Positions 22,397 to 44,087 of a stretch of DNA of 64,000 nt are shown here, piece after piece. A model generated the notes under the pieces. That model made no database searches. It was given only the letters and a program-made list of their open reading frames with translations, and was not told where the DNA came from. Both the position numbers and the translations under genes were made by a program. This DNA comes from Mesotaenium endlicherianum. Taxonomy: Eukaryota. How positions within the stretch are numbered: position 1 is the stretch's first letter; every line of letters begins with the position of its first letter. The stretch is from the NCBI GenBank assembly GCA_009602735.1, contig WELA01002258.1:78746-142745 (forward strand), in the 5' to 3' direction.

Positions 22397-23754
22397 CAGC
22401 TCTCTGTGTGCACCCTCCTTCCTCCTCTGTCTAAGTTAGGCCAACCATCGGAATGATGATATGGTTCATGACACTTGAATAGCAATTCTGGATGTGATTT
22501 TGTATTCCTTCTAATAATAGCATGACAGTGCGATTGCTTATATGGGACATATAAGTTGTAGGCATTTGCAGATTTGGTTTGCGATGTCATTGGGGGATGC
22601 ATATCCAACATGTAAGTGCTGTGTCTCATGAGGACTAGCTAGTCTTATTTGAAAGGCGTTTTGAAAAGATGGTATGCTGTGCTTGTCACTTGTCCCAGAG
22701 CCCAAGAGTTACAATGCTGCAAGTCAACAATCTGGTAGAAAAGAAAGTAATGATGTACTCATCTTCTGTCACGATCTGCTAATACTTGGATCAAAGTCTC
22801 ATTTCAACAAATCTATAAATTAGTTGCACACAAGAATGCCTCTTGGCGTAACAAAGGCCACCTGTCCGAGTTGATGACATGAATGTTCTTCTATCACGGT
22901 CATGAAGGATGACTCTGAAGACAGTACGTCGGACTACAGCATAGAGAGTAACACCAATCAGTTATCGACTAGATGTGAAGAAAAAAAGCTAAGAAAAGTT
23001 GTTGTGGTCCTTTGGCAATATGGACAAAAAACAATGAGAATAAGGTGCAGCTTATTCAACCAACATTTTGCGTCAATGAGGGAGACCGTGTAGTTGCAAA
23101 TGAAGAGAAAGCGGCTTGTGGAAATCCACATGTGCGATTATTGCATACTATGATGAGGGGTCACAATGTTCAACTCCTACGTCCGAGCCTCATATCTAAA
23201 TTTTTAAACGCCACGTTCGCTGCTTGCACGTACAGTGCATCTCCACATCCGCGTACATCTCAAAGTGCCTCCATGGCAAGTATTCCTTGTCTAGTGCGTT
23301 CATATTCCTCTCATCGGCGTATTCGTTGGTAAACATCCAAAATAAAGCATATCGGGCACATGCAAATACTCGTGTTATTTTTGCCAGACCTTGACTTTTT
23401 GCCGCAAATTCGTGGGGCACTCTTTTGCAACGTGGTTATATTGCTTGTTCTCCTTCGGGAGATACTCCAATGTGGGCCAAAGTGTTTTGCGTTATATCAA
23501 CCAAGCCTTCAGTATTTTTGGTATTTGAAACTACTCTAATATTGTGCATGATTTCCCCCAATCTTGATCTCTCCCCCCAGAAATTAGTGAAAATTCAATA
23601 AGGATCGTTGCTCAAACCAACTCTTCTTGCTTCACTATGGGGCAAACTAATGGGAGGGGTTGCAAACCCTGATCTCACAAAGCGGCACCAAACAATAACA
23701 ACAAATGAAGCATCAGAATAATTCGATCCGTCAAAGTACAAATATCTTGATTCT

Positions 23755-24584
23755 TGTCATGATTTATTGCGTCGAGGTTGTCATATAAAAACCAAGCTCC
23801 ACATGTGCGGAACATCAACCTAGGAAGGCCGACTTTGCATTGACTTTACGCATCCGTATGTTGACCTTTTCTAGATTTCCGAGTCACCAACGTGTAGCGC
23901 GTCAAAGCATCTTCCAAATGACACCAATTTCGCGTCATTTGGTCAAGTATCGAGCGAGATAGGTGCGATCTAGTCCGCGTCACCTACCGGTCCCTAGCGG
24001 AACTTTCCCAAGGCCTAATTTGTGACTCAATGTCCCCAAAGGTGACATTGTTGGCTCTTCGTGACCCCAAGCTTTGTGCGCACATATCCGCGAGCCCCTT
24101 AGCCTACATAAGCTTTGCATTTCCATAGTATATGTGCATCATTGAGGCTATAACTGCATCACCTACTCCTAGAGGAAGCTTCCTCAATTTTCAGATCCAC
24201 TTTTGAGGCGCTATCTAGGTAGAATCACCCAAGGTAAGCTCGGCCAATGAGGGACACGTAGCATATCCTACGCACCTTGCTTTGATTGGTTAGAGTTATG
24301 CTTAGCCTATAGGAGTGCTAGTACATGCATTAGTGGACATAGGAGAGCCTCCTAGAGTGACTACATGCATCGGATCCGCCGCATACCCCGCCGGATTTCC
24401 AGGAGTATAAGTACTAGAGATGTCCCTAGAAGAGACATCTTTTAGAAGTCCATTATGCCAGGTGTAAGTAACAGAGATTATCAATAAAGCTTACACTTTT
24501 ATCTCTTGTGTTTTCAGGACCACTTAGTTACTCTCTTGTGAAGAGCAAGCCCTCCACGCTTCCAGTCACTTGAAGAACTTCACA
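23755..24584 (+). repeat. 5' LTR of element A
   Basis: TG...CA ends, TATAAGTA at 24406, AATAAA at 24483, followed by AG-TGGTGAG (PBS-like). The first 382 bp recur at 35916-36296 with about 9 differences. The 3' end is inferred from the PBS only. Confidence 0.75.
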
Positions 24585-24586
24585 AG

Positions 24587-24600
24587 TGGTGAGCAAAGTC
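24587..24600 (+). promoter_or_regulatory. Putative primer-binding site of element A (TGGTGAGCAAAGTC)
   Basis: TGG 2 nt after the LTR-terminal CA. The same TGGTGAG start occurs in element B. Confidence 0.55.
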
Positions 24601-24786
24601 ACAGCTTAAGCCCTTACCATAGGACTACTCTGAAGATCATGATGTGCTTCCAGTGATGTTTTGGGCCATACTTCATTGGTTGTTTTCCTACCAGATTACA
24701 GTCTTGAGGTGCTCACTCTGGAGAGTACACATCCCTTACTTCTAAAAGATGTCTCTTTGCCTGCAAGCAATTAGAACCTTCAGCGT

Positions 24787-27777
24787 ATGCCTACCCGTAG
24801 TGGGCTTTCTTATCAGCCATACTACGAAGGGGTTAGTGGAGAAGACTCGGACTCAGATCTCAGCACTATCACTGAACCCGCCGAAGAAGAGCAACCTGCT
24901 CTCCAGCACACAGCAGTTGCTTATGAGCCATCTCCCCAGTGGGCTCACTACGATTTCTGGTATCCCATGGCAGGTGACCACGAGGTCAGGACTGACAGGT
25001 CTGCCTACCGCTTCAGCGATAGGCCAGGCACCTGTGATCGGGAAGATACCATCTCGGAGTTTCAAGCTGACTTCGCGGCTGCAAAGCTCAAGACATCCAC
25101 GGTGACTAAGCGCGACGTCTTCGACACGCTTATGCGCTACCTCTCGCACGAGGCCCGCGACACCTTCCGTGAGAAGGAGGCCAAGCTCCGGACCCGCACT
25201 GAGCTTGTGGGTGACCCACCAGTGGCGACCCTGCTAGCTGATCCAGTGCAAGCCTTCTGGAACATCCTGAAGACAGAGTTCCAGGCTGCAACTGAAGAGA
25301 AGGTGTACGAGCTGCACCATTTCTTCCGACGCAAGAACGAGACTATCCGCATGATGTACCGCCGCTTGGTGCACCTCCGCCGCGATGTCGGCACTGTCAC
25401 TGACCGAGAGGCCGCGGAGATCTTCTTGCGCGCCGTCGAGCCGCGTCTGAGGGAGAGGGCCGTAGTCCCCCTCATCGACCGCCACGGTTCAGAGTATTCT
25501 CTGGAGCAGGCCTACCTCTCCGTTGAGAAGCAGAGCTTGGCCGCCGCACGGAGCAACATTAGCGATCGTGTGGGCTTAGCATCCACGGGCGTGCGCCAGG
25601 AGGCCTCAGTGCTGCCGTCTTCTACGACGCGCACGACGCCTGCCCGCCAGCCCCAGTCGCAGCAGCAGCAGCCTCAGCGCTCTCAGCTGCCCCAGCAGAC
25701 GCAGCAGCGCGGAGCTACGCGTGGCCGCATTTCCATGGCTGCCACTACGAGCGATCCCTGCTGGTCCTGCAGGAAGACGGGCCACTCACGCCAGCACTGC
25801 ACTCTCGCGCAGAATGGCAAGCCCGGCGACTGCACCTATTGTGGCAAGGCCGGCCACCTGCAGATCGTCTGTCTGCAGAAGAAGCGCGACGTCGAGAACG
25901 GACGCGCTCGCAACGGCCCTACGCCTTCAGCAGGACAGCGAGGCGCACGCAACCCTCGTACGGGTGGCCGCCCCGCGATGACAGCAGCTACGGCCACGAC
26001 GGACGCCGCATTGATGCCTGGAGCCAACGACTGCAGCTTCGACGACGTCAGCGACGCCCTCGTGGAGGCCAACGCGGAGATCGCTAGACTCCGTGGCCTC
26101 GTCGACGTCGATGACTATGACGCGTGCGGAGCACTCCTCGCGTTCGCTCCACCGTCCTACGCCACAGAACTGACAGCTGGCTCACGCACAGCTTCAGCGT
26201 ACACATCAGGCTCAGCGGCAGCGCCGCAGCCCCGCGCACGTCCGCGTTACGACGTAGCGCCCGCTGCCAGAGCTGCAGGCGCTCGCACAGGCAGCTCTGC
26301 TAGCCTTGTGCGCACCGCTCTGACAGCTGTCAGCAGCGACAGCCGGAGTCCCGACAGACTGCCGGATGGAAGGCTGCACGACTGCGCGGTTGCGCCATCT
26401 CCCGGCGCAAGCTCGCGCGCACGCGGGCCAGCCCGCGCGCCAGCCAAGGCCCCGACAGAGCCCCTGGCTTGCGCTTCCCTGCTGGCACCAGCAGGCCTCC
26501 CGTCGGCCCGCGTAGCGACAGCTGGCAGGCAGGGACGGGGGCACCTGGCGGCGTGCACGGCTACAACTGGGCCGGCCGCAGCCTCCCTCTTCGTTCGTGC
26601 GGCACTCCCGTGCGCAGCTCTGCGCACAGGCAGGGACAGCCGGTCCCCGCTGGCTGCTGCAGACAGCAGGCTCCAGCAGAACCCGCCACATGGCACGTGC
26701 ACGGCAGGCGAGGCCGCCTCTGCCGACAGCAGCATGCACGCACGCACGCTGGCTCACACGCGCGCCCAGCGCACTGCGCTGCCAGGTCCACGGCACACCC
26801 GGCGACGCCACGCCGTCGTCACAGCGGCAGCTGCAGCTGCGCAAAGCAGCTGCACCCACGCGCTGCCAAGTGGCGCGTGCGCGCAGGTCTGCACGGCCAG
26901 CGCAGCGACGGCCGCAGCGGCCGCCACCCTCGGTCAGCAAGGGGGGGTCCTGACTGCGCTGTGCGGCCGGATCGCCGGCAAAAGCGCCGACAGCGCACCC
27001 GCAGCTGCGCACATCCAGGGCTCAGCCCCTGCCGCACACGTGCTGCCACTTGGCACGCGCGCATGGCCCGGCTCAGCCCGTACAGATCCAGCGGTCGGAG
27101 CAGCCACCCGCAGTCAGGGGGGGGCTATACCCACTGCGCCACGCGGCCGGATGTTCGATCGCGGTGCCGACGGCCCGCGCACGGTTGCGCACAGCCAGGG
27201 CCTAAACCCTGGCTGCGCACAAAACCCCGGCAGCAGCCCAACGCAGGCTGCCGGGGGGCCGGTTAGCCCACGCATCGGGGGGAGGGCGCTGCGATCTTCG
27301 CCCGGGGCAGCCGAGATAGACGGCGCCACCGGTCCAGTGACCCTGCCCCTCGGCCCCAGCAGCCACCAGGGGGCGCCACCTGGCAGCCTCCTGGCAGCCC
27401 CGACCGCGCCAGCAGCTGCAGCAACTGCTGCAGCCGCGGCCGCACACGCGCCGGGGTCCGCAACTTTTGCGGCCGAACCCGCGACCGGCTGCACGGCAGG
27501 CCTTGCGGCAGGCTGCGCAAGGAGTCCTGCGGCAGACAGTGCGGCAGTTTGCGCGGCAGGCTGCGCAGCAGGCCTCGCGGCGCGCCCTGCGGCAGACAGT
27601 GCGGCAATCTGCGCGGCAGGCTGCGCGGCAGGCGCGACGGCAGTTCCCGCCACCGGCTGCGCGGCAGGCACGGCGGCAGATCTTGCAACGGGGGGGCTAT
27701 CCCGACTACGCCACGCGGCCGGATGTCCGATCGCGGTGTCGACGGCCCACGCACTGCTGCGCATTGCCAGGGCCTAA
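24787..27777 (+). CDS. gag: Gag of element A (capsid-like region, two zinc knuckles) plus an Ala-rich spacer; frame broken by an internal duplication
   Basis: MPTRSG start; knuckles CWSCRKTGHSRQHC and CTYCGKAGHLQIVC at ~25759-25872. Confidence 0.8.
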   Translation: MPTRSGLSYQPYYEGVSGEDSDSDLSTITEPAEEEQPALQHTAVAYEPSPQWAHYDFWYPMAGDHEVRTDRSAYRFSDRPGTCDREDTISEFQADFAAAKLKTSTVTKRDVFDTLMRYLSHEARDTFREKEAKLRTRTELVGDPPVATLLADPVQAFWNILKTEFQAATEEKVYELHHFFRRKNETIRMMYRRLVHLRRDVGTVTDREAAEIFLRAVEPRLRERAVVPLIDRHGSEYSLEQAYLSVEKQSLAAARSNISDRVGLASTGVRQEASVLPSSTTRTTPARQPQSQQQQPQRSQLPQQTQQRGATRGRISMAATTSDPCWSCRKTGHSRQHCTLAQNGKPGDCTYCGKAGHLQIVCLQKKRDVENGRARNGPTPSAGQRGARNPRTGGRPAMTAATATTDAALMPGANDCSFDDVSDALVEANAEIARLRGLVDVDDYDACGALLAFAPPSYATELTAGSRTASAYTSGSAAAPQPRARPRYDVAPAARAAGARTGSSASLVRTALTAVSSDSRSPDRLPDGRLHDCAVAPSPGASSRARGPARAPAKAPTEPLACASLLAPAGLPSARVATAGRQGRGHLAACTATTGPAAASLFVRAALPCAALRTGRDSRSPLAAADSRLQQNPPHGTCTAGEAASADSSMHARTLAHTRAQRTALPGPRHTRRRHAVVTAAAAAAQSSCTHALPSGACAQVCTASAATAAAAATLGQQGGVLTALCGRIAGKSADSAPAAAHIQGSAPAAHVLPLGTRAWPGSARTDPAVGAATRSQGGAIPTAPRGRMFDRGADGPRTVAHSQGLNPGCAQNPGSSPTQAAGGPVSPRIGGRALRSSPGAAEIDGATGPVTLPLGPSSHQGAPPGSLLAAPTAPAAAATAAAAAAHAPGSATFAAEPATGCTAGLAAGCARSPAADSAAVCAAGCAAGLAARPAADSAAICAAGCAAGATAVPATGCAAGTAADLATGGLSRLRHAAGCPIAVSTAHALLRIARA

Positions 27778-28261
27778 ACCCTGGCTGCGCACAAAACCCC
27801 GGCAGCAGCCCAACGCAGGCTGCCGGGGGGCCGGTTAGCCCACGCATCGGGGGGAGGGCGCTGCGATCTTTGCCCGGGGCAGCCGAGATAGACGGCGCCA
27901 CCGGTCCAGTGACCCTGCCCCTCGGCCCCAGCAGCCACCAGGGGGCGCCACCTGGCAGCCTCCTGGCAGCCCCGACCGCGCCAGCAGCTGCAGCAACTGC
28001 TGCAGCCGCGGCCGCACACGCGCCGGGGTCCGCAACTTTTGCGGCCGAACCCGCGACCGGCTGCACGGCAGGCCTTGCGGCAGGCTGCGCAAGGAGTCCT
28101 GCGGCAGACAGTGCGGCAGTTTGCGCGGCAGGCTGCGCAGCAGGCCTCGCGGCGCGCCCTGCGGCAGACAGTGCGGCAATCTGCGCGGCAGGCTGCGCGG
28201 CAGGCGCGACGGCAGTTCCCGCCACCGGCTGCGCGGCAGGCGCGGCGGCAGATCTCGCAAC
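27118..28261 (+). repeat. 572-bp near-perfect tandem duplication containing GCGGCAGGC minisatellite units
   Basis: GGGCCTAAACCCTGG at 27198 and 27770 (offset 572). The same peptide appears in two different frames. Confidence 0.9.
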
Positions 28262-28863
28262 GGGCCCCGCGGCAGGCCTCGCGGCAAGCTGCGCGCACGG
28301 CGCTGCAACAGGCCCCGCGGCAGAATGCGCGGCAGGTTTGCCGGCTGCGCCAGCAGCGGCCATTCTGGCCTGCTGCGCACGCGCGCAGCCACTCGGCAAC
28401 CGCTCCGCAGTCGGGCGCGCGAGCCGCGAGCACACGCTCGCAGCACCGGTCAGTCGGCCCGTTGTTCCGCAGAAGCGCGTCGGGCCAGACCAGGGACGAC
28501 GGACGGAGGAGGCACCGCGGTTGCCTTGTTCCTTCCGCATCCTAGAGCCCTCCACGACCTCAGCAAAGCCGACGCCACATGCGCTCACTTCGCCTATGAC
28601 GACGGTGCAGCTCAGCGCCGAGGTCATCTCTCTAGCACTGCACCGCATGCCGGCGGTCTCCTTCGCAGAGCTCGGCGTCTCCATGGAGGCAACGAGGCAA
28701 GCCGCTCAGCTAATGCTCCAGTCGCGCAGAGCCACGCTGCGCACCGCCGCCAGGAGGCCGATGGCCGATGCCGCCACCGCGGTGCGATCCACGCCCGCGC
28801 GCCGTGCGCATGAGCGCAGGATGATCAGCACTCCTAACGCCGCGTTTTTGGATAATTCGCAAG

Positions 28864-29230
28864 GGATTGTGCTCGTCAACACCCAGGCGATGCAGCGCAT
28901 CATGTTCGACACAGGCGCGCAGCCAGTTCTCATCAGCTTCCGCTACTTCCGTCAGCTAGGACTCTCTTCCGCTGACTTGGAGGACTCTCCGACGCGCATT
29001 AACACCGCCGCCGGCACGTCCGAGACCGTCGCCAGTCGCACGAGGTTGGCGCTACTGTTCACTCTGCACCCAGGCACGGCAGACGAGACAACCATCCATC
29101 GGCACGCACTCGTCACTCCTTCCGAGTCCTTCGATGTGCTCCTAGGGCAGGACGTGCTCTTTCCCATTGGCGCCGCGGTCGACAACTGGGCAGAGCGCGT
29201 CTTCTATCGTCCCGACTGGAGGACAGGGGA
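28864..29230 (+). pseudogene. Aspartic protease domain of element A
   Basis: IMFDTGAQPVLIS (DTG at 28908) and FDVLLGQDVL. Confidence 0.85.
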
Positions 29231-31266
29231 ACGCGCACCGCATCCTTGCCCCTTGACATTGCCGATCGCCGCCCAGCAGTGTCCAGCTTCATGGGGCTGG
29301 ACGATGGCCGGCCAGTGGTCAAGACCAATAAGGACGGGCCCGAGGACGAGGAGATCTCTGTGGGGGTGGACCTGCTTGAGCCACAGGACGAGGAGCCGGA
29401 CCTACCTAGTGCCGAGCTCCACCTCACGCCGCAGCAGCAGGCGGATGTCCTGGCAGCCCAGGCCAGGGAGCAGATCCGCATCTGCACTGCCCCACAGCGC
29501 GATGATGCGGCAGATGGCGGACGATGCCACTGAGGCCCTCGCCACGGCTAGCACAGCCATCGCTGCCGCCGCCCTTGCTCGCGGTGCGGTCGCAGCGCCT
29601 ACAACTCATCAGGGGGTCTCGCCCTCTCGCCGCAAGCCGTCTGCGAGGACCGACGTCCGCGTTCGCCACGACGTGCCTGTTGGCGTGGCCATTCAGTACA
29701 GTATGGACTCTCAGCCGCCCCCTCACGACGCCTCGCATCAGACCGGAAAAACCTGGCCTCGCACCACGGCATCCGAAGACGAGGCCATGCGGCAGGCAGC
29801 TTATCCTGGCAGATCCGACGACCAGTCCCTCAAGAGTGAGGAGGAGACGCAGTGGGAGCGACTGCCAGAGGCATCCGTTGAGGTACTCAGCGCGGCGCCT
29901 CCAGAGGAGCCCCCGCCAGCTGCGCCTACGGCACGCAGGCAGCGCGCACCTACTAGTCCGCCCGGCTACAGCGCACCCAGCCAGCCCATGACACACGACT
30001 GGCCCAGCAGGGCTCGCACCGACACCGCTGGACCCAGCCGTCCAGTGTCACACGACTGCTCAACGAGCCACGAGTGTCGCCGCATCGCACATTTGTTTAC
30101 GACAAGCCGGGCTGCCGTGGCCTCCTCTAGCGCTGGCACACACTCCATACAGCAGCCAGCGCCCAGGCTCAGCGTCCGCGAGCCACCCCGCACAACCCCG
30201 TCTATCTGCGCCCATCTGACCTACGCACATCGCACTTGGCCGACCATTGGACCCGCTCGAGAGACCACTCCTCTCCGCGAGACGAGCCGCTCCCGATCGC
30301 TCACACCCCTTTGCGAGACGCGAGAGGTGACTCCCCTCCGTGAGATGCGAGCCCGCTTCGTCACGCCACCCTACGACGACAAGGAGCGCACACTTCCTTA
30401 CGACGACACGCGGGCCCGCGGGGACACGTCGCCATACGACGACACTCGAGACCAACGCCGCACTCCGCCCTTCCGACCCCTCTCAGCTGGCGACAACGCT
30501 CAGTCTTCTTCCGAGGCGCATTTCGTGATGCTGGCCCCTACAGCTCCGCGCGCCAGCGTCCCTCGCAGCCACATCGCTGGCAACGGTCCCTCCGGGTCAC
30601 CTCCTCCCAAGGTGGCCCGCACCGACAGCAGGCCGCCCAGTCGTCACCCATTTACGGCCGCCGCACGCACACGGCTCATGTCTAGTCTCCGGCAGCCCCG
30701 AGACGCGCCCGTCCCACGAGGGCAGCCCCGGCCGCGAGTCCAGCTGGCCCCTCGCCGGCTAGTTCGGTCCCCGCAGGAGGTCAAAAGCTTCGAGTGCTCC
30801 GTCTGCACAATCCCCTCTGCAGACATGCGCGCACGCCAGCGGGCCTACTTCGACCCGCACCCCTACTTAACTCAGCGTTCCGTTATCGACCAGCTGGCCC
30901 ACGTGGCCTCGCACCAGACTGACCACGCCCAGCGCGACAGGTGGCAGCAGCTGTGCGTGGCCTCGGCCCGACGTCAGGCCCGCGCTGTCTCCCCGACAGC
31001 CCTGCAGGATGCGCGCCTGCGGTGGCGCACCTACCAGGACCACGTACGGGAGGAGCGTCCGCAGCCGCTCACTGACCGCATCCCCAGCCTTACGCGTGAC
31101 TACGCAGACCGTGCTGTGGCCGCCCTCCGCATGGCGCCACATCAGCACAGCGCCGAGCGTACCTTCCCGCCGCCCGCTCAGCCCGGCACCCCCGCAATGG
31201 GGTGTCGCCCACTTCCGACTCCTATCTGCGTAGACTCTCTAAGACGGTCTGGACGAGCGGCCCGGC

Positions 31267-32216
31267 GGCATCGTCCTCGTCAAGCTCTTCGCCGGCATCG
31301 CCACCGGGTTGCTCGCGACCTTACAGGCCGGCATCCCGGTGCGCCGCTACGTGTACGTCGATCCCGATCCTGAGGCCCAGCAGGTGGCCCGTCGGCAGAT
31401 GGCGTTGAGCCACGAGCGGTTCCCTGACCTCCTTCCCGCGCACGCATTCCGCCGCGCTCAGACGGACTGGCCCATGGACATCCGCGACATCACCGTCGAG
31501 CATGTCACCCGACTTGGGCCCATTGACCTCGTCATCGCCGGTTGGGAGTGCCAGGGCTTCTCCAGAGCCGGGCGTGGCAGGGCGCTCAGCGATCCCCCAC
31601 GGCCCTCTTCTGGCACTTGCTCCGCGTCCTCAACATTGGTGAGGATCGCCAGCCGCCACACACCCTCGCGTGGGTCCTGGAGAACGTGGCCGCGCGCCAC
31701 GATCGCCGTCCCGATGTTAGCGCCGACTTCGCTCTTTGCAGCAGCTACGTCGGCCGCGAGGCCGTCATTGACGCTGCCCAGATTGGTTCCTTCGCGCACC
31801 GCGTCCGCGCCTACTTCACGAACCTGGCGATGCCAGGTACTCTCGAGGCGTTGGCCGCCTCTCATCCACGTCACCCACGCACCGTCGACTCCATCCTCGA
31901 TGCCCCTCGCCTGGCCCAGCGCGTGACTGCACTACCACATCCCTCCATGGCGCAGTGTGAGGTCCTGCATGACGTCACTCGCGCGCTGCCGACTTTTGTC
32001 AGCCGCTACGACAGCGACGCCTTCGTCGGAGATCAGCGCGGGATGGTCATCGACCTGGAGACTGGCATGTTTGACAGGCCGCGCCCTGCGGAGATGGAGC
32101 GTGCCATGGGCTTCCCGCCGCATCTCACACAGGTGGACGGTCTCACTGAGGTGAAACGCATTCGCCTCTTGGGGCAGGCGATCGACGCCAACGTCCTCAC
32201 GTGGATTCTCCTGCAG
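31267..32216 (+). pseudogene. DNMT3-like C5 cytosine methyltransferase domain of element A (1-nt frameshift at ~31597)
   Basis: Motif I LVKLFAGIATGLL, motif IV GPIDLVIAGWECQGFS, motif VI WVLENV, motif VIII AHRVRAYFTNL, motif IX EMERAMGFP, motif X RIRLLGQAI. These parallel DNMT3 LSLFDGIATGLL / GPFDLVIGGSPC / ENV / AHRARYFWGNL / EMERVFGFP / RQRLLGRSW. Confidence 0.88.
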
Positions 32217-32664
32217 ACGCAGGCCTTGGCGCCTCTCTACGCCGCAGCCCGCCATTCCGAGCTGCCTTGGCCTGCCCACGATATGGACGATGACTCCATC
32301 GACGATGACAATCAGGCCCCGCCCGGCACGACGTGGCATCCTCAGCGCGCAGGGCCTGCACCGCCAGCGCGCACCCGCCCCCCCTCCCCCCCGCCGCACA
32401 GGGAGGACTCTGGTTCGCTGGGGGGGGGCCGGCGGAGAGAGGAGTCCTCACAGCGACCCAGGCCGTCCCGGTCACCTTTTCTTTTTCCTCGCTCGCAGGC
32501 AGACGGTGCCAGGCAGCTGGCCGCAGATGCCACAGTGCAGGTACCCGCGGCAGGCCGAGCGCCAATTGCTGCAGGGCAGGTGACACTTGCAGCACTACCG
32601 TCTACCCCAGCGGCAAGACAAAAGACTCCAGCTGCAAGCCAGGCGACGCCACCAGCCCCACCGA

Positions 32665-35600
32665 CATGGAAGCTGGGGGGGACACTCACCAAGGCACAGG
32701 CTGCACAGTTGACGGCACTGCTGGACGGGAGGCGCAGCACCAGCTTTGCCAGCGGCATGCACGATCTTGGGCGCTATAGGGGGGACCCCATGCGGATTAC
32801 TCTCACGTCGCAGGAGCCCATTTTCCTGAAGCGTTATCGCTATAGCCAGTTCGAGGATGGCTTGATTAGCGCGCAGACAGGCAAGCTGGAGGACAGTCGG
32901 CTCATTCGGGAGTCCTCCTCTTGCTATGCCGCACCCACGGTCATGCCAGCCAAGAAGGATGCCTCGGGCAACTTTTCCGAGAAGAGGATGTGCGGTGACT
33001 ATCGTAGGCTGAACGAGGTCACCGAGCAGGACAGATATCCTATGCCGACGCTTGGCGAGATCTTTGACGACATTGGCACGTGCACTTGGTTCTCAGTGCT
33101 GGATCTACGTCAGGGCTTCAACCAGATTCCTATCGCCGAGGAAGGACCAGCATAAGACGGCGTTCTGGGGAGCACAGCGCCTCTACGAGTGGGTGGTGAT
33201 GCCGTTTGGGTTGAAGAACGCGCCAGCTACCTTTCAGAGGGTGATGGATAAGGAGCTGGCCGGGCTGTCCTTTGCCCGATGCTACATCAATGACGTGCTC
33301 GTCTTCAGTCAGACGTTTGAGGAGCACGTGGCGCACATCACTGCTGTCCTGGACCGCTTGGAGGCCGCTGGGCTCAAGTGCCATCCAGGCAAGTGCACTT
33401 TTGGGACCCGCGAGGTGGAGTACCTTGGCCACCTGCTCTCTTCCAGCGGCTTGGCACCCCAGCTGGCGAAGATCTCGGCCATCACAGGCATCCCACCTCC
33501 TACAAATCTCTTGCAGCTGCGGGCCTTCCTCGGCATCGCCAACTACTACCGCCGCTTCGTGCCAGGGTTCAGCGAGCTAGCCAAGCCGCTCAAGGACTTG
33601 CTCCGCAAGGGCGTTGCCTACGTGTGGGGACCAGAGCAGCAGGCGGCATTTGATACGCTCAAGGAGCTGCTGGTGAGCACTCCTATGCTTTGGCGTCCTG
33701 ACTACACGAAGCCCTTCATCCTCCACACCGACTGGTCGCAGGCAGGGCTGGGCGCTGTGCTGGTGCAGGAGCATGACGGCTTCGAGCATGTGGTGGCCTA
33801 CGCCAGCCGCAGCAACAACCGCGCGGAAGGCAACTACGGCTCCTACGAGGGGGAGTGCCTGGCAGCGGTCTGGGCGATCGTGCACTTCAGGCACTATCTC
33901 TACGGCACGCACTTTCGCCTGGTCACCAACCATCAGCCACTTAAGTGGCTCATGACGTCGGAGCGCTTGAGCGGCAAGTACGCACGGTGGGCGCTTATCT
34001 TGCAGGAGTACACCTTCGACGTGCACCACCGTCCAGGCTCGACCAACCTGGACGCTGACGGTCTCAGCCGTAACCCGCTGCCCTCCTTGAGGGATCTCAC
34101 TGTGGCCCGCCACGATGAGGATGAGCCGGTGGCCTGGCACGCGGCGGCCTTCCTGGCCTTCACCGTGGACGGCGATGTGCGGCCCGCAGGGCTCACTAGC
34201 CTGGACATGGTGACCGTCATCACTCGGCAATTTGCCCTGGCAGCGGCAGAGGATCAAGACAGCTGGCAGCGCGGTCCCGAGGACGTGTGGGACGACGCCC
34301 CAGTGCTGCAGTACGTCACGGCCAAGGAGTTGGCACCCGATGTCAGCGCACGCGAGCGCGACCGCATCCTCAGGCGCAGCCGCGACTTCATTTTCATGGA
34401 CCGGCGCGTGCGGCGCGTGATGGCGGACGGCTCCGTCCTGGTGGTCCCTGAGCCTGCCATACGCAGTCAGCTGGTGCGCCGAGTGCACGAGTCCCTCGAA
34501 CACTTTGGTGTCAAGCGCACCCTTAGTCTTCTTCAGGCCGAGTACTGGTGGCACGGCATGACTAAGGTCGTCGCCGCTGTCGTCAGCAGCTGCACTCTCT
34601 GCGACCGTGTGCGCTCGAGCTTCACAGCGCGCACCGTTGCCCTCAGCCCCCTTCCTATTCAGGGGCTGATTTACAGGTGGTCACTTGACTTGGCTGGAGA
34701 GCTGCCCAAGTCTCGCCAGGGCAACCTCTACGTCTTGGTGATGATTGAGCACATGTCCAAGTGGATCGAGCTCGTGCCCTTGCCCAGCAAGGCCAGTGAG
34801 GGGATCGCTCAGGCCTTCCTCAATCAAGTCCTCAGCCGTTTTGGCGGCTGCGCTGAGGTGCTGACCGACCAGGGCAAGGAGTTCCAGGGCAGCTTTCAGA
34901 AGCTGCTGGAGCGCTCTATGATCGACCACCGCACCACCTTTTGCGTTCATCCTCAGGCTGACGGCCTCGCCGAGCGCATGGTGCAGACCGTCAAGCTAGG
35001 GTTGCGGAAGTACTGCCTTGCCCACGACCGTACCCACTGGGACGACGCCCTCCCTTGGCTAGCGATGGGGTACAAGATCAGTAAGCAGGCCTCCCTGGCC
35101 TCGCACTCGCCCTACTTCCTTCCCTACGGCCGACAGCCCATCCTGCCAGCAGCAGCCAGGATTGTGGCCGAGAACGTCTTGGACTTGGACAGTCCCGAGA
35201 CATGGAGTGCTCTTGTCGGGCAGCGTGCTCAGCTCTTTCGGCGCCTGATGCCCATGGCCATGGATAACCTCAGCATCGCACAGCATCGCGACACACTGAG
35301 GTACGCCATGACTTGTGGAGGAGCCTATCATCCGCGGGTGTTGCAGTTTTCCGCAGGTGACTTCGTGTACCTGCGACGTCAGACGAAGAACACCCTCGAC
35401 ACCAGCAGCTCGCCGGTCATCCTACGCGTCAAGCGTGCCTTGGCGTTAGGAGTCTTGGAGCTGGAAGGCGCAGATGGCCGTCTTCACAAGGACCACACAA
35501 AGAACTGTGGGCCGTGCCACCTTCCTAACCTTGACTTGCAGGTCCGTCCCCGCGACGCGCGGCCGCCCAAGGACTGGGCGTGCCAGATTTGTCACAGCAC

Positions 35601-35757
35601 TGGCCAGGTCACCAAGATGCTGCTCTGCGACAGCTGCAACCTCGGCTTCCACATCGGCTGCCTCGACCCGCCGCTGGCCCGCGTGCCAGCTGAAGACTGG
35701 TTCTGCAGAGATTGCACTGAGCTAGCCTTAGGCAGCGTACACAGCTCATCAGCTTGA
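32665..35757 (+). pseudogene. pol: RT-RNaseH-integrase-PHD part of the element A polyprotein (frameshift at ~33144; catalytic YIDD changed to YIND)
   Basis: RMCGDYRRLN, YPMP, PFGLKNAP, YIND, HTDWS, TNHQPL, HHCC (HESLEH...CTLC), DDE (LDLAG, TDQG, AERMV). C4HC3 PHD finger CQIC...LLCDSC...HIGC...WFCRDC at 35581-35715. Confidence 0.92.
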
Positions 35758-35915
35758 GGCTGAGAGCTGGGGGGGGAATTAAAACATTTTCGACTTGACT
35801 CTTTTTTTGGCTATAACGCCACATGTATTATAGACTCCATTGCAGCACAGCCTGCTTGCCTATGATGTGTTGCTTATGCCTATGATGCGCACTCGACCTC
35901 GTAACGCACGACAGT

Positions 35916-36296
35916 TGTCATGATTTATTGCGTCGAGGTTGTCATATAAAAATCAAGCTCCACATGTGCGAAACATCAACCTAGGAAGGCCGACTTTGCA
36001 TTGACTTTACGCATCCGTATGTTGACCTTTTCTAGATTTCCAAGTCACCAACGTGTAGCGCGTCAAAGCATCTTCCAAATGACACCAATTTCGCGTCATT
36101 TGGTCAAGTATCGAGCGAGATAGGTGCGATCTAGTCCGCGTCACCTACCGGGCCCTAGCGAACTTTCCCAAGGCCCAATTTGTGACTCAATGTCCCCAAA
36201 GGTGACATTGTTGGCTCTTCGTGACCCCAAGCTTTGTGCGCACAAATCCGCGAGCCCCTTAGCCTACATGGGCTTTGCATTTCCATAGTATATGTG
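35916..36296 (+). repeat. Truncated 3' LTR of element A
   Basis: Matches 23755-24136; similarity stops abruptly at TATGTG (36296). Confidence 0.9.
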
Positions 36297-37249
36297 TGCA
36301 GCGTGCTTGCTGCCTTAGCCACTTCCTTTTCCTTGTGCTGTCGAGCGTCTGCTTCCAGCAACTGCTCCATGATCTGCCTTGTAATGGATTCAGCTGTCTG
36401 ACTAGCTAAGCCCTGCTGTTGCCCCTAGCCTGCGGCTCTGGGCTCATCAAGGCAGGTGTTATAGATAATTTCTTGTCCAACTCCTCCGGGCGTTCTTGAA
36501 TATCACTTCAAGGCATATGGTCTTTGCGGCCCTCCAGAATCTCCTGAATTTTGGCTACTCTCTTCAGCCCATTCACCAATATTGCATTAGCGTTCTCGCC
36601 CTAATACTTGGTTTAGATTATATCCAATTTCTTCAGGCGTTGGCTCTGGGGTCTTATTCTCAGACTCTTCTGACATGTCTTGTAACGGCGCTTGCTCTGG
36701 TGAAGACAATGGACACTTTTGGTTAGCTTCCCAACTACTTGAGCTTTCCTGCCAGTAGTCTCCGTGCCCAGCTGCTCTTGGGCTGAGGTGGGTATCATAC
36801 TTTGATATGGCATCTTCTGGAGTCTCCTCACGTCTTGATGTTGTGGCTCCGGAAGGTGGGCTCCCAAACATCCGACTGTGAGTGGCGTTTCTCACAGATG
36901 ATGGGGTGTCCTGCGTATCGTCTTCTACTCTTGGCAGCGGCGTTGCTTGCTCAGGTGCCTGGTCCCCCTTTGGTGTATCCTCTCTTTCCAGAGGTGCTTG
37001 TAATTCATTGGTCCCGGTATCGATCTGGTCCAACAGATCCTGGCATCTCATCAATTCAGCCACCCTAGCTTCCCTGAATGCTCTGTCTCTGGCAGCTTTC
37101 GCTGCGTCTTTTTGCACACCGGATTCTTTTTGTTGCTGATGTGCCGTCTTGATAGCCCTTTGATTAGATGTTGGCACCACATGGGCCCCAATTGTCACTG
37201 GTCTTGGCCTCAACATAGGCTTGTCAGTGAAGGTCAACTGCTGCCACGT

Positions 37250-38215
37250 CATGATTGTTTCCACCAACCAAGTCATAGAGTGCTGCCCAATCATGTTGCC
37301 GAAAATCTTTGCAGCTTCATCTGACCCTACAGCACCGGCTACATGCCAAGCTATGGTGTCGGGTATTCCAAGGCATTTGCCCTTCTCCACCGCTGTAGGC
37401 TCTCTCCAAACGGCGTCTCTTTTATGCATGTCTTTGACCATTCCTTGCCCACCTTCTATGAAGGCTCGGGATCTTGGATATGTTGTGAAGGTGGGCAGTA
37501 CCACCCTTGGCTGACCTAGTTCGTTGATGACACACTTTGGATAGGAATCCCTCCTGGCCACTGGTTTGGTATGCACCGCCAGCGCCTCTACCACTGTCAA
37601 TGCCGTTGGTTATCGCCGTGTAATGTCCTCCATCTCTCTCAGGATCTCAATAGACATGCCGTTGGTCCAAAATACTCTGGCCCTATGGGATAATCCTCCG
37701 TGCTTGGCGTCGTTGATTAGCACATGATGGCCCAAAGTGACGTCGAAAATCAGCCATGGTTCTCCTGGCTTCATCTGCTTGTAATCCATTCCCGGATGCA
37801 CATTCTCAATCACAAACACTGGTGGGTAGAAGTGCCGTCGTTCCCGCAGCATGCTGATGATTGTCACCATCCATCCCCAGTGTTGTGCTCGTGGATCACT
37901 GAATCCCCTCCTGTTTCCACCTTGAGAAAACGGTTGACAAGGAAATCCAACAAAGGTCCAATCAATTTTTTAGTCATACAGGCCTTCAGGCTTCACATCA
38001 ATAAAGTTGCCTCCGGGGATGCGCTTGACATTGCTATATGCGAGCACCAACCCTTTAAAATGATGCATTTGCCGCATCTGACTCATGACTTCTCTGAATG
38101 CTAGAAAAGCGTGGTTGTCATTGTCCACATACAGGACTTTGGCCACCTGTATTCCTCGCTGGATCAATGCTATAGTCCCAGACCCAAGTCCGGCAAATAA
38201 TTCCAACACCACTAC
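37250..38215 (-). pseudogene. C5 cytosine methyltransferase domain of element B (two in-frame TAA stops at 37970-37972 and 37610-37612)
   Basis: One continuous frame: VVVLELFAGLGSG...LYVD, *KIDWTFVGFPCQPFSQGG..GFSDPR, VIENV, HRARVFWTN, WREPTAVEKGKCLGIP, FGNMI. Confidence 0.85.
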
Positions 38216-38519
38216 TTCCCTTTTGCGAAAAGGATCTTCCATCCTGACAATGCCTTGCGGCAACGGCTCAACTCCAGGCATCAGATTTGCAGTGGAGGTA
38301 ACTGGGTGGGGTACTAACAGCAACTCTTGCGGGCCGCGGTCCCTATTACTCACAGTTTCCAGCTGCTTCATGATCCGGGGTTGCCATACCAAGGGTGTTG
38401 GCATGTTGATGCTCGTATAACTTTCCTCTTTTTGCTTCATGATGTTGTTGCAGGCTTTTGGGTACCTGTCGTTAACGCAGCAGTCTAGCAGTCCATAGTT
38501 TGGTTCTCTTGTGCAAACC

Positions 38520-40957
38520 ATCTTCACAGGTATTTCTCCTGCCGACTGTCGATCTGTTGACTGGTAAGTCACCCTCCGCTTCCGCAGATCAATGACCATA
38601 CCCAAGGAGATCAGCGCTTTTGTTCGCAAGAGAACATCATAGTTCTCTGCATCCGTCACTGTGCACTCCATGAGAAGTGACGCCTCTTCAAGTTTCCCTG
38701 GCTTTACTGTGATTTTCACAGGCTTGCGGGTAATCCCGCAAGACTTTGAGACTTGTCTTGAGGCAATTCTGAACTGGAAAGGACTCTCTTTCAGGTCCCT
38801 TGCCGTCAATCCTAGAGCTTTCACAGCTCGCTTTCCCAAGATGACTGGCTGTGCGCCTGTATCCAACAGAATGTTGGGAGCTACCCAATTGTTGAAGATT
38901 AATGCACCATCCCAATTTTGCACTCTCACGGTGCTGAAATTGATGGGCAATGAGGCGCTATTTGCACCTTCTCCAGCTATATCCAGCTGATGTCCGGCTT
39001 CTTCAACCGTGCACGGGTAAGTGATATGCAAATCAGCGAGAGAAAGCAAAGAAGCATGCTGGATCTGGTGTTCCACCACGGCCTTCAGCTTCTCCAGCAA
39101 AAAACTAAATGTCTTACGCGTCCCGGGCCTGGCTTGTCGTAGCTGCGAGATCTCATTTTCATCCAGAGTGATCCGAAAAGTCTGAGGAAGCTTCCCAGCG
39201 TTCCTTGGCACCAGACGGTTGTGATCTGCTTGCTCGGCAACCGTTGCGTCCACAGCCTTTTCAAGCATCAGCTTCTCGCCTTTGCAGACGCTCTTTTCTG
39301 CAATATCTGCATCATAGTAGACATTGGGCGCATTTAGTTTCGCAAACTGAGCTTTTAACTCAGAGATTTTTACACTCATAGCTTCATACTTCTGGTTACC
39401 CTTGCCACCCTTTTCTTTCCTTTTTTCCTTGTTTGCCTCTTTCAAGGCAGCATTTGCCCATGGCGATTTTTGGGTTCTTAGACCAGCACTCATCTTGTGA
39501 GTGTCCCTTCTTGCTGCAATGTGCACATATCTACGCCTTGCTAGCAGATAGTTGCTTAGCATCTGGTTACGAACAATCCCTCTTCTGATGTCCTGATTTC
39601 CTGCAATTCCAACAGTGTTGGCATGCTTAGCAAACTTATTGAAAGACCCGCTCTTTTTCTTAAACTGAAAATTAGAGCTGTTGGCCTTAGACGGAGAGGA
39701 TTCCTACCTCCTCTCAGGAGCCATAAGCGTCCTGGAAGCCACTTTGTACGACACTCTACCTTCTTCAACATTGCGTGCTATTTCAGCCGCCTCGTCGCTG
39801 TCCCAGTCAATCCCGTGCTTTGCGGACAGATGTGGCCTGACTTCACGATCTGTTTCCTTGCCCAAGCACAACAGAAACTTGTCAGCCACTATTTTGGGCT
39901 CGTATTTTTTGCCTTTTTGGCGAGGTCTACCAATCGGGATTTAACCTCCATGACTGTCTCGTTCTTCTGACGGACAAAATGCACATAACGGTGCACCTTA
40001 AGATTGCGATCTTTTGGGAATCGTGCTTCACGCAACTTAAAGAAACGACGCAGACAATGCTCGGGGTCTAGCTAGTCATCCCCAGCCTCCATATCCTTAC
40101 AACAGCTAGCCAAGCCTTGCGCATGGCTTGCCTCTGTCGTGGCGCTATCACCTTGCTGACCCTGAAGAGGTGCAGCTCTGCGTGTTACTCAGCAATCTTT
40201 TCAGACAATTTTGCACACACCTTTCGCAATTCTGCGACAGAGCCGGCATCATCGTTCTGAGTAGCAACCCTTTGCTGACCCTCAGTGAGTTGCCTCATGG
40301 CCTCTGTTAATTCTTGTGTTAGTGCAGCTAAGTCTATGCTCTCAACAGGTGCAATTGGACTGCTCTTCCTGAAGATAAAGCAGACATTTGGGCTTTCGCA
40401 GCCTCTTCCTGGATTTTCAAATCCCTAGCCCTTTTTTGTTCTCCAATTGCCCATTCCTGGGTGAGATCCTCATTCTTCCGGAATTGGCGATATAACAGCA
40501 AGGCATCCTTGTCCAAGTACTGAACCAAGCCTATAAATGCGACAGGTTGCGTATAAGAAGAATCCTTCCGAATCTTCTCAAAGAATTCTGCCCAATAGAT
40601 CTCATCAAACTCTTCGAAAGTGAGACCGTTTCCACTGGTTCGTCCGCTAAAACACTTTGCAGACAGCTTGAACTTAGGATTTTCATCCCGATCATCACCC
40701 GCCATTTCGAACGGTGACGAGGACTCACTAACTCTACTCCACACGTCTTGCTCTCTGCCCAAATCAGGTGCAAAAGCTCGTGTGTTATCCGGGTTCTCAC
40801 CGCTTGCGGGGATATGACGAGACTCGTCGCTCGACGGTTGCTCACTCCACCGCTTGTCAGTATGCTCAGACGTCTCACCTCCTGGTGGACTTTGGCTAGA
40901 ATCAAAACCTTCTGCAGACTCCACAGAGGGGCAGAGTCTTCCACTCCTGAACCGCAT
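38520..40957 (-). pseudogene. Degenerate gag and aspartic protease of element B
   Basis: MRFRSG start at 40957. VQYLDKDAL and HFVRQKNETV align with element A MRYLSHEAR and HFFRRKNETI. Protease ILLDTGAQPVILG at 38863. Several stops and frameshifts. Confidence 0.75.
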
Positions 40958-41286
40958 ATACAGTTGGATTTCTCCGGGTCCCCTTCCAGGTTGAACACCG
41001 GCAGCCTTCACAGGCCTCAATCTCCAATTGACTCAAGAATTCTTGTTTACTTGAACCAATCAATGAGTTCTCAAAAGTAAGGCAGCGTCTTACTTCCACA
41101 CAGGCTTTCACCCAAGTTCAGGATTTACAGAATGAAAAAATATTGTGGTTTGCAGAAATCACATCTAAGCAGCTTAATTGGCAATGCCGCATTCAAAGAA
41201 AATTGCCCTTCAAGGCTTTCGCTTAACTTCCACAAGTCACAGCTTACAAAACTCTGAAATGGCACATCTATGCTGGCCTGGTCTGA

Positions 41287-42030
41287 TGAATTGAATCGAC
41301 TTACCAAATAGGCGATTAACAATTAATAAAGATCCTTATATCAGCAAGTAATCTTATGGTATTTCCGTTAACTAGTTAAACGGCAAAGGACAATACACTA
41401 GCAGGGAATAATACTCGTAAGTCAAATACGAGTAAACTAGCATCAATGATGCAAATCAGTAAACTCATACATAAGCAAGGTTAGAAGACAGTGCGTATCA
41501 ATGGCTTCTCGCCTTGGATTCAGAGTTCTCTCAGTAAGCTGTACAAGAGAGTTGGCCTCGTTTCCGAATGCCGAACTCGAGAGCAATGCCTAGCGTATGT
41601 ACATGGAATGAGTTTACTGTTCAACGGTCAGTGCGATGGCACCGCCTACCCGGGAGTTAACCACGTTGGTAGGACCTCGGTTAACCAAATCCACCGCCAT
41701 CTCCCATCATCCCGAATAGCCATCCATCATAGGGATGTCATCTGGCCATTCATCTAGCATATCGCACTTAGATGCATATCAAGGCAGTTCGCTGCTACCG
41801 AGTACGGAAGTCAGCTGGCTGTCAAAGAATGTGTCAGCAAGCTGACTTAAGTTGACTTCAGCCTGCTGCTTTTGGCCGAGTCATTAAACTGATAATTATG
41901 TAAAGTCCAGCAGACTGATTATTAACTAAAGTTCAGCAGGCTGAATACTAACTAAAGTTCAGCAGGCTGAACTAAATTAACTATTATATTTAAATGAATA
42001 TTATATCTACTAATATACTGATTCATTACA
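41287..42030 (-). repeat. 3' LTR of element C (744 bp, with an extra ~25-bp tandem unit at ~41924-41973)
   Basis: High-identity copy of 49386-50105. Confidence 0.95.
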
Positions 42031-42143
42031 ATCCCTCCAACTTAACTTGTTGTCGCCTCGACAACATTAAACTGCAAAAGCTTTAAATAAAGAAACTGAC
42101 CCTGACCAGCCTCCCTTACTGACTATCTTTTCAGCCTGTCACC

Positions 42144-43820: not shown

Positions 43821-44087
43821 CCTGCACATGTAACCAGGGCACAAGTTAGTAGGATATGGACCTTTGTCATAGGGATTGCAGGAAGTATGTTAGTATTTAG
43901 TATAGTGGCTTCGCTGCTGTTTACCTTACAGGATGATTGCTAAAAGTTGACGTAGTTGCGATGCGCTACACATAAACGTATGAGTGTGTTTTTATCGCTC
44001 TCGCTCACTAACTGTCATATATTTTCCCCTCCAACTTAAATGGAGACAGGACCGCCTGTCACCTTCCCGTGTCAACTGAAATGACAG

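What the first reader, a model, noticed from the sequence alone, without database searches (positions are those of the whole stretch)
35560..35757. Integrase ends in a PHD finger, pairing a histone reader with the DNMT3-like writer
Seen: a clean C4HC3 PHD finger (CQICHSTGQVTKMLLCDSCNLGFHIGCLDPPLARVPAEDWFCRDC) sits where chromoviruses such as neighbouring element C carry a chromodomain. Established: PHD fingers with LLCD...H..C..PPL..VP...W.C (KDM5-PHD1, BAZ2, CHD4 type) usually bind the unmodified H3 tail, and cellular DNMT3 uses its PHD-like ADD domain to read H3K4me0. Inference: the element rebuilds DNMT3 reader-writer logic inside one polyprotein, steering integration (and possibly methylation) to H3K4-unmethylated chromatin.
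Basis: partly seen in the sequence, partly recalled or inferred. Interest (0 to 1): 0.7.

Follow-up and report, generated by a model that had tools for sequence, protein, structure and literature searches.

The report
PHD-tipped integrase of DNMT3-carrying retrotransposon
A broken copy of a green-lineage jumping gene ends its integrase with an intact PHD zinc finger and also carries a DNMT3-like DNA methyltransferase; the finger likely binds the histone H3 tail and likely helps dock new insertions, and the element likely belongs to a family that is already described.

Summary
The PHD finger is real: all eight zinc ligands are present at 35581-35715 (Pfam E 6e-11), closing the RT-RNaseH-integrase frame of a decayed Ty3/Gypsy copy. 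The copy also carries a frameshifted DNMT3-type methyltransferase and fits KnitGypsy-Dnmt3 (PMC5890265), including its DIRS-like repeat layout. PHD and DNMT are co-inherited across one large RT clade (43 of 49 long polyproteins found by an RT-only query carry both), with rare clean losses each way. The finger keeps the H3R2-binding Asp (209 of 220) and never has the K4me3-cage Trp (0 of 220), so binding to the unmodified H3 N-terminus is likely; strict K4me0 sensing is open. The 'DNMT3 reader-writer in one polyprotein' reading is weak here: the domains lie over 1,000 residues apart, the DNMT has moved within the clade while the PHD stayed on integrase, and some relatives put a stop codon between them. 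Best reading: a chromatin tether for integration, with a separately acting methyltransferase. PHD fingers in retrotransposons are known, and this scan noted the same pairing three times on other genomes. A side lead looks newer: chlorophyte-type relatives read DNMT3-integrase-PHD-Tudor-like-methyltransferase-like.

The parts
23754..24738 (+). 5' terminal repeat block A
   Evidence: 23754-24136 is 97.65% identical to 35915-36296; depth jumps from single-copy flank at about 23754 and reads or contigs of other copies leave the window at 24738 into block B
24775..27777 (+). Gag-like frame with CCHC-like knuckles, running into low-complexity sequence
   Evidence: tblastn of intact relative P0137 hits 25231-25905, E 1e-6; no Pfam hit
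27118..28264 (+). internal tandem duplication of about 575 bp
   Evidence: self-BLAST 97.7%
28854..29222 (+). aspartic protease
   Evidence: Pfam gag-asp_proteas E 2e-7; family profile 94 bits
31258..32210 (+). DNMT3-type C5 cytosine methyltransferase, split by a frameshift just after the catalytic-Cys motif
   Evidence: two profile hits in two frames; PDB hits DNMT3A/B/C for both halves
32847..33447 (+). reverse transcriptase, split by a frameshift; the YxDD motif reads YIND
33685..34044 (+). RNase H; one acidic motif residue reads Asn
   Evidence: Pfam RT_RNaseH E 2e-36
34453..34617 (+). integrase HHCC zinc-binding domain
   Evidence: Pfam Integrase_H2C2 E 2e-15
34654..35160 (+). integrase catalytic core with D, D, E
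   Evidence: Pfam rve E 5e-13; Foldseek top hits foamy virus and Ty3 integrases
35362..35514 (+). predicted SH3-like beta barrel of the integrase C-terminal domain
   Evidence: strands at model residues 305-355, pLDDT 87-94; the name SH3-like is my reading of the strand pattern
35581..35715 (+). C4HC3 PHD finger, the subject of the finding
35769..35778 (+). polypurine-tract-like G run after the stop codon
   Evidence: sequence; role inferred
35777..35914 (+). 3' repeat block B
   Evidence: loose ends at 35777 and at 24738 join the end of block A to the start of this block in other copies
35915..36296 (+). second copy of block A, cut short after 382 bp
   Evidence: loose ends behind 36296 continue as 24137 onward in other copies

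Best explanation
This is a broken copy of a Ty3/Gypsy retrotransposon, likely of the Gypsy-DNMT3 family, whose integrase ends in an intact PHD finger that is predicted to bind the unmodified start of histone H3 and likely tethers the integration complex to nucleosomes, while the DNMT3-type enzyme likely acts as a separate protein. Shown: domain order, intact finger, DNMT3 type, clade-wide conservation, fixed spacing to integrase, decay of this copy. Inferred: the protease releases integrase with its SH3-like barrel and PHD as one protein; the finger grips H3 A1 and R2 and disfavours K4me3, biasing insertions away from active promoters, the role a chromodomain plays at the same position in chromoviruses; the DNMT is released or translated separately and most plausibly methylates the element's own cDNA, as proposed in PMC5890265. 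The two domains would serve one strategy (land in quiet chromatin, arrive marked) without the allosteric link that ADD gives cellular DNMT3.
For: Finger intact and well modelled. Same slot as element C's chromodomain, 140 against 146 residues after the core. Spacing from integrase core to PHD is 135-164 residues in 158 proteins, in both layouts, while the DNMT sits either before RT or between RNase H and integrase. Mean pairwise identity of the PHD is 0.46 against 0.24 for a spacer and 0.49 for the integrase core, 111 proteins. Of 228 C-terminal PHDs, 220 parsed: Asp after the third Cys 209, Trp two before the His 0 (Gly 196), Pro four before the core Trp 176, an acid five or six before the third Cys 139; PMC3214078 and PMC5415848 tie these positions to H3R2 binding, the K4me3 cage, the A1 pocket and the acidic wall (my mapping is by the UHRF1 alignment). 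Best PDB hits are KMT2D, KMT2C, UHRF1, CHD4, KAT6A, ATXR5, PHF21A, KDM5-PHD1 and BAZ2 fingers. Separation from the DNMT: 1,027-1,145 residues; in L082 a stop followed by CAA TCA, which fits the CAR YYA readthrough context of PMC2754532; DNMT kept with PHD cleanly missing in P0401 and P0422; PHD kept with DNMT missing in P0217 and P0157.
Against: No binding, structure-of-complex or insertion-site result exists. A mirror-tree test did not favour this reading: PHD similarity tracked DNMT (partial r 0.20) and RT (0.26) rather than integrase (-0.03); the pairs are not independent. Losses of either domain are rare (2 of 45 informative for DNMT; 2 clean PHD losses among 46 informative), which also fits functional linkage. 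The second R2-binding acid of UHRF1 is present in only 27 of 220, an acid two before the first Cys in 5 of 220, and this copy has no acid at the acidic-wall slots. This insertion lies about 1.3 kb from the end of an expressed host gene, which says nothing for heterochromatin targeting. Protease cleavage sites were not mapped. The Klebsormidium DNMT showed no activity in yeast, called inconclusive by its authors (PMC5890265).
Confidence: 0.58

Rival explanations
1. Coupled reader-writer: the PHD reads H3K4me0 and brings the DNMT to the same chromatin, so each new copy and its flanks are methylated on arrival. The link would be non-covalent in this layout and possibly covalent in chlorophyte-type relatives, where the DNMT directly precedes integrase.
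For: 43 of 49 clade polyproteins from an RT-only query carry both domains, 4 end before the PHD slot, 2 lack the DNMT; 0 of 39 outside the clade carry either a DNMT3-type domain or a C-terminal PHD. From the DNMT side, 83 of 85 informative proteins and 43 of 46 have the PHD. In 170 proteins the DNMT ends 161-429 residues before the integrase core. Catalytic Cys motif in 57 of 62 and EN motif in 60 of 62 full-length DNMTs. Partial r PHD-DNMT 0.20.
Against: One clade, so one ancestral pairing. No finger next to the DNMT in 273 domains. Stop codon between them in L082. Each lost alone at times. 11 outgroup elements have a similar PHD before integrase without DNMT3, 8 of them with Dam.
Confidence: 0.17
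2. The finger is a general nucleosome anchor of the UHRF1 kind: it grips H3 A1 and R2, tolerates K4 methylation, and raises integration efficiency on chromatin without steering it by K4 state.
For: UHRF1 fingers fill many of the top PDB hits; UHRF1-PHD binds K4me3 only about 3-fold more weakly (PMC3214078, passages). The conserved family positions are those for A1 and R2; the acids that would hold K4 are variable.
Against: An acidic-wall residue is present in 139 of 220, and PMC5415848 links that feature to loss of binding on K4 methylation in BAZ2, DPF3b and MOZ. The family lacks UHRF1's extra N-terminal zinc site as far as the sequences show.
Confidence: 0.17
3. The finger binds something other than H3 (a host protein, nucleic acid, or the element's own Gag or integrase).
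For: Some PHD fingers, including KMT2C/D tandem fingers, bind non-histone partners (recalled, no call); these are the two best PDB hits. Met three before the third Cys (190 of 220) and Trp or Tyr before the His are more fixed than histone binding alone would need.
Against: The R2-binding Asp and the A1-pocket loop are conserved at 209 and 176 of 220.
Confidence: 0.08

Closest known systems
KnitGypsy-Dnmt3 of Klebsormidium nitens, 'Gypsy-DNMT3' of streptophytes (PMC5890265; name reused in 10.64898/2026.05.21.726589)
   Same: Gypsy domain order with a DNMT3-type domain in Pol; DIRS-like A-coding-B-A-B repeats; K. nitens proteins KFL_009030040 (PR-DNMT-RT-RH-IN) and KFL_015960010 (IN-PHD) are among the relatives and KFL_009030040 lies on the same side of a 99-support RT split.
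   Different: The paper's text and three supplementary files never mention a PHD (no hit in the listing or; its Fig. 4c could not be seen). The family found here is much wider (Marchantia, Calypogeia, Haematococcus, Volvox, Monoraphidium, Chlamydomonas eustigma, Chromochloris) and has three layouts.
PHD-bearing Chlamydomonas retrotransposons, Gypsy-7a_cRei and REM1 (PMC9940879 section 13; PMC8557442 and PMC6673714 passages)
   Same: A PHD finger in a Gypsy polyprotein, already proposed to guide insertion; Gypsy-7a_cRei inserts in intergenic DNA 2.6 times more often than chance.
   Different: No DNMT is listed for Gypsy-7a_cRei and its legend lists PHD before integrase. I did not have its sequence, so kinship is untested. 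REM1 could not be read; that its PHD lies in a separate antisense frame is recalled.
Chromoviruses (e.g. neighbouring element C, 41287-50105, minus strand)
   Same: A histone-reader fold at the integrase C-terminus after an SH3-like domain, at nearly the same distance from the core.
   Different: PHD instead of chromodomain; the RT groups apart from element C.
Cellular DNMT3A/B with its ADD domain
   Same: DNMT3-type catalytic domain; a PHD-type reader predicted to prefer unmethylated H3K4.
   Different: ADD is adjacent to and inhibits the catalytic domain (recalled); here a canonical PHD lies over 1,000 residues downstream. Plant and algal DNMT3s have no ADD (PMC12344493, passage), so nothing was inherited as a unit.
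EpiLTRs and DAM-LTRs (10.64898/2026.05.21.726589, section 7 and passages)
   Same: Gypsy elements combining methyltransferases with a chromatin reader.
   Different: EpiLTRs have a chromodomain, Dam and a DNMT4-sister enzyme; this element has PHD and DNMT3 and no Dam. The preprint's only 'PHD' hit is a fellowship.

Membership tests
KnitGypsy-Dnmt3 / Gypsy-DNMT3 | Ty3/Gypsy order PR-RT-RH-IN | tested here: met
KnitGypsy-Dnmt3 / Gypsy-DNMT3 | Unrearranged DNMT3-type domain inside Pol | tested here: met
   both halves hit DNMT3A/B/C first, in normal motif order; single-frame relatives such as P0137 map colinearly; no DNMT tree with cellular outgroups was built
KnitGypsy-Dnmt3 / Gypsy-DNMT3 | DIRS-like repeats A-coding-B-A-B | tested here: met
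   this copy shows A-coding-B-A(cut); other copies continue A into B (loose ends); no single full-length copy was seen
KnitGypsy-Dnmt3 / Gypsy-DNMT3 | RT groups with the K. nitens element | tested here: met
   29 rows against 17, SH-aLRT 99, quick tree only; no supported closer tie
KnitGypsy-Dnmt3 / Gypsy-DNMT3 | Methyltransferase activity | not testable with these tools
   motifs conserved in relatives; this copy is frameshifted
Chromovirus | Chromodomain at the integrase C-terminus | tested here: not met
   no PF00385 in this frame; present in element C
Chromovirus | RT groups with chromodomain-bearing elements | tested here: not met
   element C, P0231 and P0237 fall on the other side of the split; no reference lineage set was used
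Unmodified-H3 reader PHD (KDM5-PHD1, BAZ2, UHRF1 type) | C4HC3 cross-brace ligands | tested here: met
Unmodified-H3 reader PHD (KDM5-PHD1, BAZ2, UHRF1 type) | No cage Trp for methyl-K4 | tested here: met
   Gly here; Trp in 0 of 220
Unmodified-H3 reader PHD (KDM5-PHD1, BAZ2, UHRF1 type) | R2-binding Asp after the third Cys and Pro-containing A1 pocket loop | tested here: met
   present here; 209 and 176 of 220
Unmodified-H3 reader PHD (KDM5-PHD1, BAZ2, UHRF1 type) | Acidic residue holding unmethylated K4 (N-terminal Asp or acidic wall) | tested here: inconclusive
   139 of 220 have an acidic-wall residue, 109 an acid three before the first Cys; this copy has the latter only
Unmodified-H3 reader PHD (KDM5-PHD1, BAZ2, UHRF1 type) | Measured H3 binding and K4me sensitivity | not testable with these tools
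   needs peptide binding; the complex predictor was not available
DNMT3 ADD-catalytic reader-writer module | Reader directly upstream of the catalytic domain | tested here: not met
   0 of 273; 1,027-1,145 residues downstream instead
DNMT3 ADD-catalytic reader-writer module | ADD fold rather than a canonical PHD | tested here: not met
   Pfam calls PHD only; no DNMT3 or ATRX chain among the 60 of 85 PDB hits shown
DNMT3 ADD-catalytic reader-writer module | H3-relieved autoinhibition | not testable with these tools
   biochemistry needed
EpiLTR | Chromodomain plus Dam plus DNMT | tested here: not met
   no chromodomain or Dam hit in this element's frames

The most novel reading that the evidence does not exclude
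The clade couples insertion and methylation: the PHD docks the integration complex on H3K4-unmethylated nucleosomes and the DNMT3 travels with it, covalently in the chlorophyte-type layout where DNMT3, integrase, PHD, a Tudor-like domain and a second methyltransferase-like domain are contiguous, so each new copy writes its own chromatin state on arrival. That would be a transposon-built analogue of DNMT3-ADD targeting and a third kind of multi-enzyme epigenetic LTR element.
Probability: 0.15. Interest if true: 0.72.

Novelty: new member of a known kind. Interest (0 to 1): 0.33.

Why it matters
PHD fingers in retrotransposons have been assumed for twenty years to guide insertion, and the papers read here cite no binding test. 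This clade offers hundreds of intact, conserved fingers, natural losses of either domain, and three layouts (one frame, stop-separated, DNMT next to integrase), which makes the question directly testable. It also widens Gypsy-DNMT3 from one alga to much of the green lineage. The window's own copy is dead and adds no function.

Tried and rejected
No host genome was held, so copy number, insertion sites and chromatin context could not be mapped. Single-sequence folding failed (pLDDT 33.8). Foldseek on the 435-residue model listed only integrases, so it says nothing on the finger. The metagenome locus scan gave 1 distant locus; of 67 loci scanned with my profiles (L001-L005, L082-L143 range as held then; the 76 loci L006-L081 were left out as distant) only L082 held DNMT or PHD. 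A histone search in 5 contaminated genomes found nothing over the cut-off. The careful IQ-TREE runs did not finish; trees are FastTree or quick IQ-TREE, midpoint-rooted. The mirror-tree test was uninformative. No RNA holder was listed. In two polyA runs (6% and 12% read) the DNMT region had no reads and the few integrase-PHD reads were mostly 90-95% alike and ran on unlike; repeat block A had reads; this shows no full-length transcript and does not prove silence. CpG observed/expected gave no self-methylation signal (DNMT region 1.12, RT-RH 0.79, element C 0.44). Rejected: chance motif; a host PHD gene fused by accident (conserved clade-wide); K4me3 reader; ADD domain. Literature: ten searches found no text describing PHD plus DNMT3 in one Gypsy clade; figures, bioRxiv supplements, Repbase, the Craig thesis, REM1 and Iyer 2011 could not be seen and may show it.
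Full report
Observation. Pfam scores it as PHD at E 6.2e-11 and finds RT, RNase H, the HHCC finger and the integrase core in the same frame. The pattern occurs once in the window and never in 100 local shuffles. An AlphaFold2 model built from 82 sequences (mean pLDDT 85.4) shows the HHCC domain, core, a long helix, a beta barrel and the finger at pLDDT 78-94; Foldseek returns foamy virus and Ty3 integrases. The finger starts 140 residues after the core, and element C's chromodomain 146 residues after its core.

The element. It spans 23754-36296: Gag-like frame, protease, DNMT, RT, RNase H, integrase, PHD. Both halves of the DNMT hit DNMT3A/B/C first among solved structures. The copy is dead: DNMT and RT are each split by a frameshift, the RT motif reads YIND and an RNase H acid reads Asn (relatives have DD in all 76 parsed RT hits, 83 not parsed, and Asp in 143 of 160 RNase H hits). 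The matched repeats are 97.65% identical. Contigs of a DNA run that matches the host flank without a difference cover every bin of the element in thousands of variants, so the family is multicopy in this species (summed depth is not a copy number). Loose ends show that block A (23754-24738) runs into block B (35777-35914) in other copies, and that the second A is cut at 36296 here. That gives A-coding-B-A-B, the DIRS-like layout reported for KnitGypsy-Dnmt3 (PMC5890265, parts 1-4 of 7 read). The host was not identified; named relatives are all green algae or liverworts.

The family. A search with integrase plus PHD gave 186 hits, 120 listed, 110 with the Pfam PHD mark (biased by the query). 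An RT-RNase H query with neither PHD nor DNMT gave 574 long proteins, 120 listed; 88 had a single RT, RNase H and integrase in order and 32 were dropped. On the RT-RNase H tree one side holds the window element and every DNMT3-bearing protein (29 against 17 rows at SH-aLRT 99 in the reduced quick tree; midpoint root only). On that side 43 of 49 have both domains, 4 have the DNMT and end before the PHD slot, and 2 have the PHD without DNMT. On the other side 0 of 39 have either in these forms, but 11 carry a PHD before integrase, 8 of them with Dam. From the DNMT side, 107 proteins gave 83 with integrase and PHD, 4 ending early, 2 without a scored PHD (one has a divergent Cys/His finger by eye) and 18 without integrase in the frame. 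The best 150 of the representative search gave 43, 9, 3 and 95; two of the three lack the finger cleanly. These sets overlap and favour long open frames. The pairing is thus the rule, but it is one ancestral pairing.

Three layouts. In the window's layout the DNMT precedes RT, 1,027-1,145 residues from the PHD (11 proteins). In a second, the Gag-protease-DNMT frame stops: L082 has one in-frame UAG followed by CAA TCA before RT, matching the CAR YYA readthrough context (PMC2754532, passages), and 13 related proteins end shortly after the DNMT. In a third, seen in chlorophytes, the DNMT lies between RNase H and integrase; this group is one branch at 99-100 support in both the RT and DNMT trees (45 of 126 such DNMTs were sampled). 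Throughout, the PHD stays 135-164 residues after the integrase core. The DNMT moves; the PHD belongs to integrase. No DNMT has a finger just upstream (0 of 273). A mirror-tree test did not back this up: PHD similarity tracked RT and DNMT slightly and integrase not at all after correction; with 45 residues and non-independent pairs I give it little weight, but it is against my reading.

What the finger reads. The PHD is as conserved as the enzymes (0.46 mean identity against 0.24 for a spacer). Using the UHRF1 alignment and residue roles from PMC3214078 (passages) and PMC5415848 (section 6 and passages): the R2-binding Asp is kept in 209 of 220, the methyl-K4 cage Trp is absent in all 220, the A1-pocket Pro is kept in 176, and an acidic-wall residue in 139 (8 of 228 not parsed). 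This copy has the first three features and lacks the acidic wall. Binding to the unmodified H3 N-terminus is therefore likely. Whether K4 methylation blocks it is open, because UHRF1-PHD loses only about 3-fold on K4me3. The complex prediction could not be run.

Mechanism. Most likely (0.58) the mature integrase carries the finger as a nucleosome tether that disfavours K4me3 chromatin, and the DNMT works as a separate protein, plausibly on the element's cDNA. Polyprotein cleavage is general Ty3/Gypsy knowledge and was not mapped here. Rivals: a coupled reader-writer (0.17), a K4-tolerant anchor (0.17), a non-histone partner (0.08).

Comparison. Gypsy elements with DNMT3 are published (PMC5890265; preprint 10.64898/2026.05.21.726589, section 7 and passages; PMC12344493, passages). 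PHD fingers in retrotransposons are published and already proposed to guide insertion (PMC6673714 and PMC8557442, passages; PMC9940879, section 13; preprint 10.1101/2021.11.30.470311, section 10 and passages). PMC6317226 has no PHD or methyltransferase hit. Ten searches found no text on the clade-wide PHD-DNMT3 pairing, but figures and several sources were out of reach, and K. nitens itself encodes an integrase-PHD protein of this family, so the 2018 figure may show it. This scan noted the same pairing on three other genomes; those notes agree with my reading and are not evidence.

Verdict. Observation confirmed; interpretation partly supported. A new, dead member of a known family; interest 0.33. 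The more novel material lies in relatives: the stop-separated layout and the chlorophyte layout with DNMT3, integrase, PHD, Tudor-like and methyltransferase-like domains in a row (leads only).

Noticed in passing
Relatives P0048, P0181, P0193, P0065, P0218 and others (not in the window): Chlorophyte-type members (RT-RH-DNMT3-IN-PHD) run on past the PHD into a Tudor-like stretch (Atlas leads to PTM/DIR17-like Tudor, score 0.88) and a SAM-methyltransferase-like domain resembling phage adenine methyltransferases (score 0.87, TM 0.7 by target), with an altered catalytic motif. 101 of 162 such proteins match my tail profile, which was built from 96 tails. Pfam gives no hit. Both Atlas scores are leads only. 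Together with the DIRS-like repeats this hints at a DIRS donor.
   Followed up: partly
L082:3480-3500: Gag-PR-DNMT frame ends in a single in-frame UAG followed by CAA TCA, then RT-RH-IN-PHD; this fits the CAR YYA readthrough context. 13 related proteins end 90-149 residues after the DNMT. The DNMT would be made at Gag level. One locus only. The contig is filed under a cyanobacterial assembly and looks like eukaryotic contamination.
   Followed up: partly
Relatives P0161, P0162, P0164, P0165, P0170, P0172, P0195, P0219: A separate Gypsy clade with Dam between protease and RT and a PHD between RNase H and integrase; the DAM-LTR preprint does not mention PHD.
   Followed up: partly
window 36587-41032, minus strand: Element B: a second, divergent protease plus DNMT-bearing element (DNMT pieces at 37262-38227, motif GFPCQ), broken, with no RT in the window. 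The junction at 36296 cuts element A's 3' repeat.
   Followed up: partly
window 41287-50105, minus strand: Element C: chromovirus with open Gag and Pol frames, chromodomain, and repeats 97% identical; related repeat copies lie at 50413-51130, 55429-55734, 57552-58129 and 62883-63589.
   Followed up: no
window 42144-43889, minus strand: A 581-codon open frame between element C's Pol and its 3' repeat, with no credible Pfam hit.
   Followed up: no
window 22090-22395: Last coding part of a host gene that looks like a thiamine-dependent lyase (my reading of the sequence, not searched), with polyA reads to about 22635; element A begins about 1.3 kb downstream.
   Followed up: no
window 52146-53789 and 60578-62228; 59775-60581: A 1.6-kb repeat pair (88%) and an inverted copy, with N runs at 53792-54476; not classified.
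   Followed up: no
L144-L159: Viral contigs encode histone H3-like proteins with a canonical N-terminus and divergent tails.
   Followed up: no
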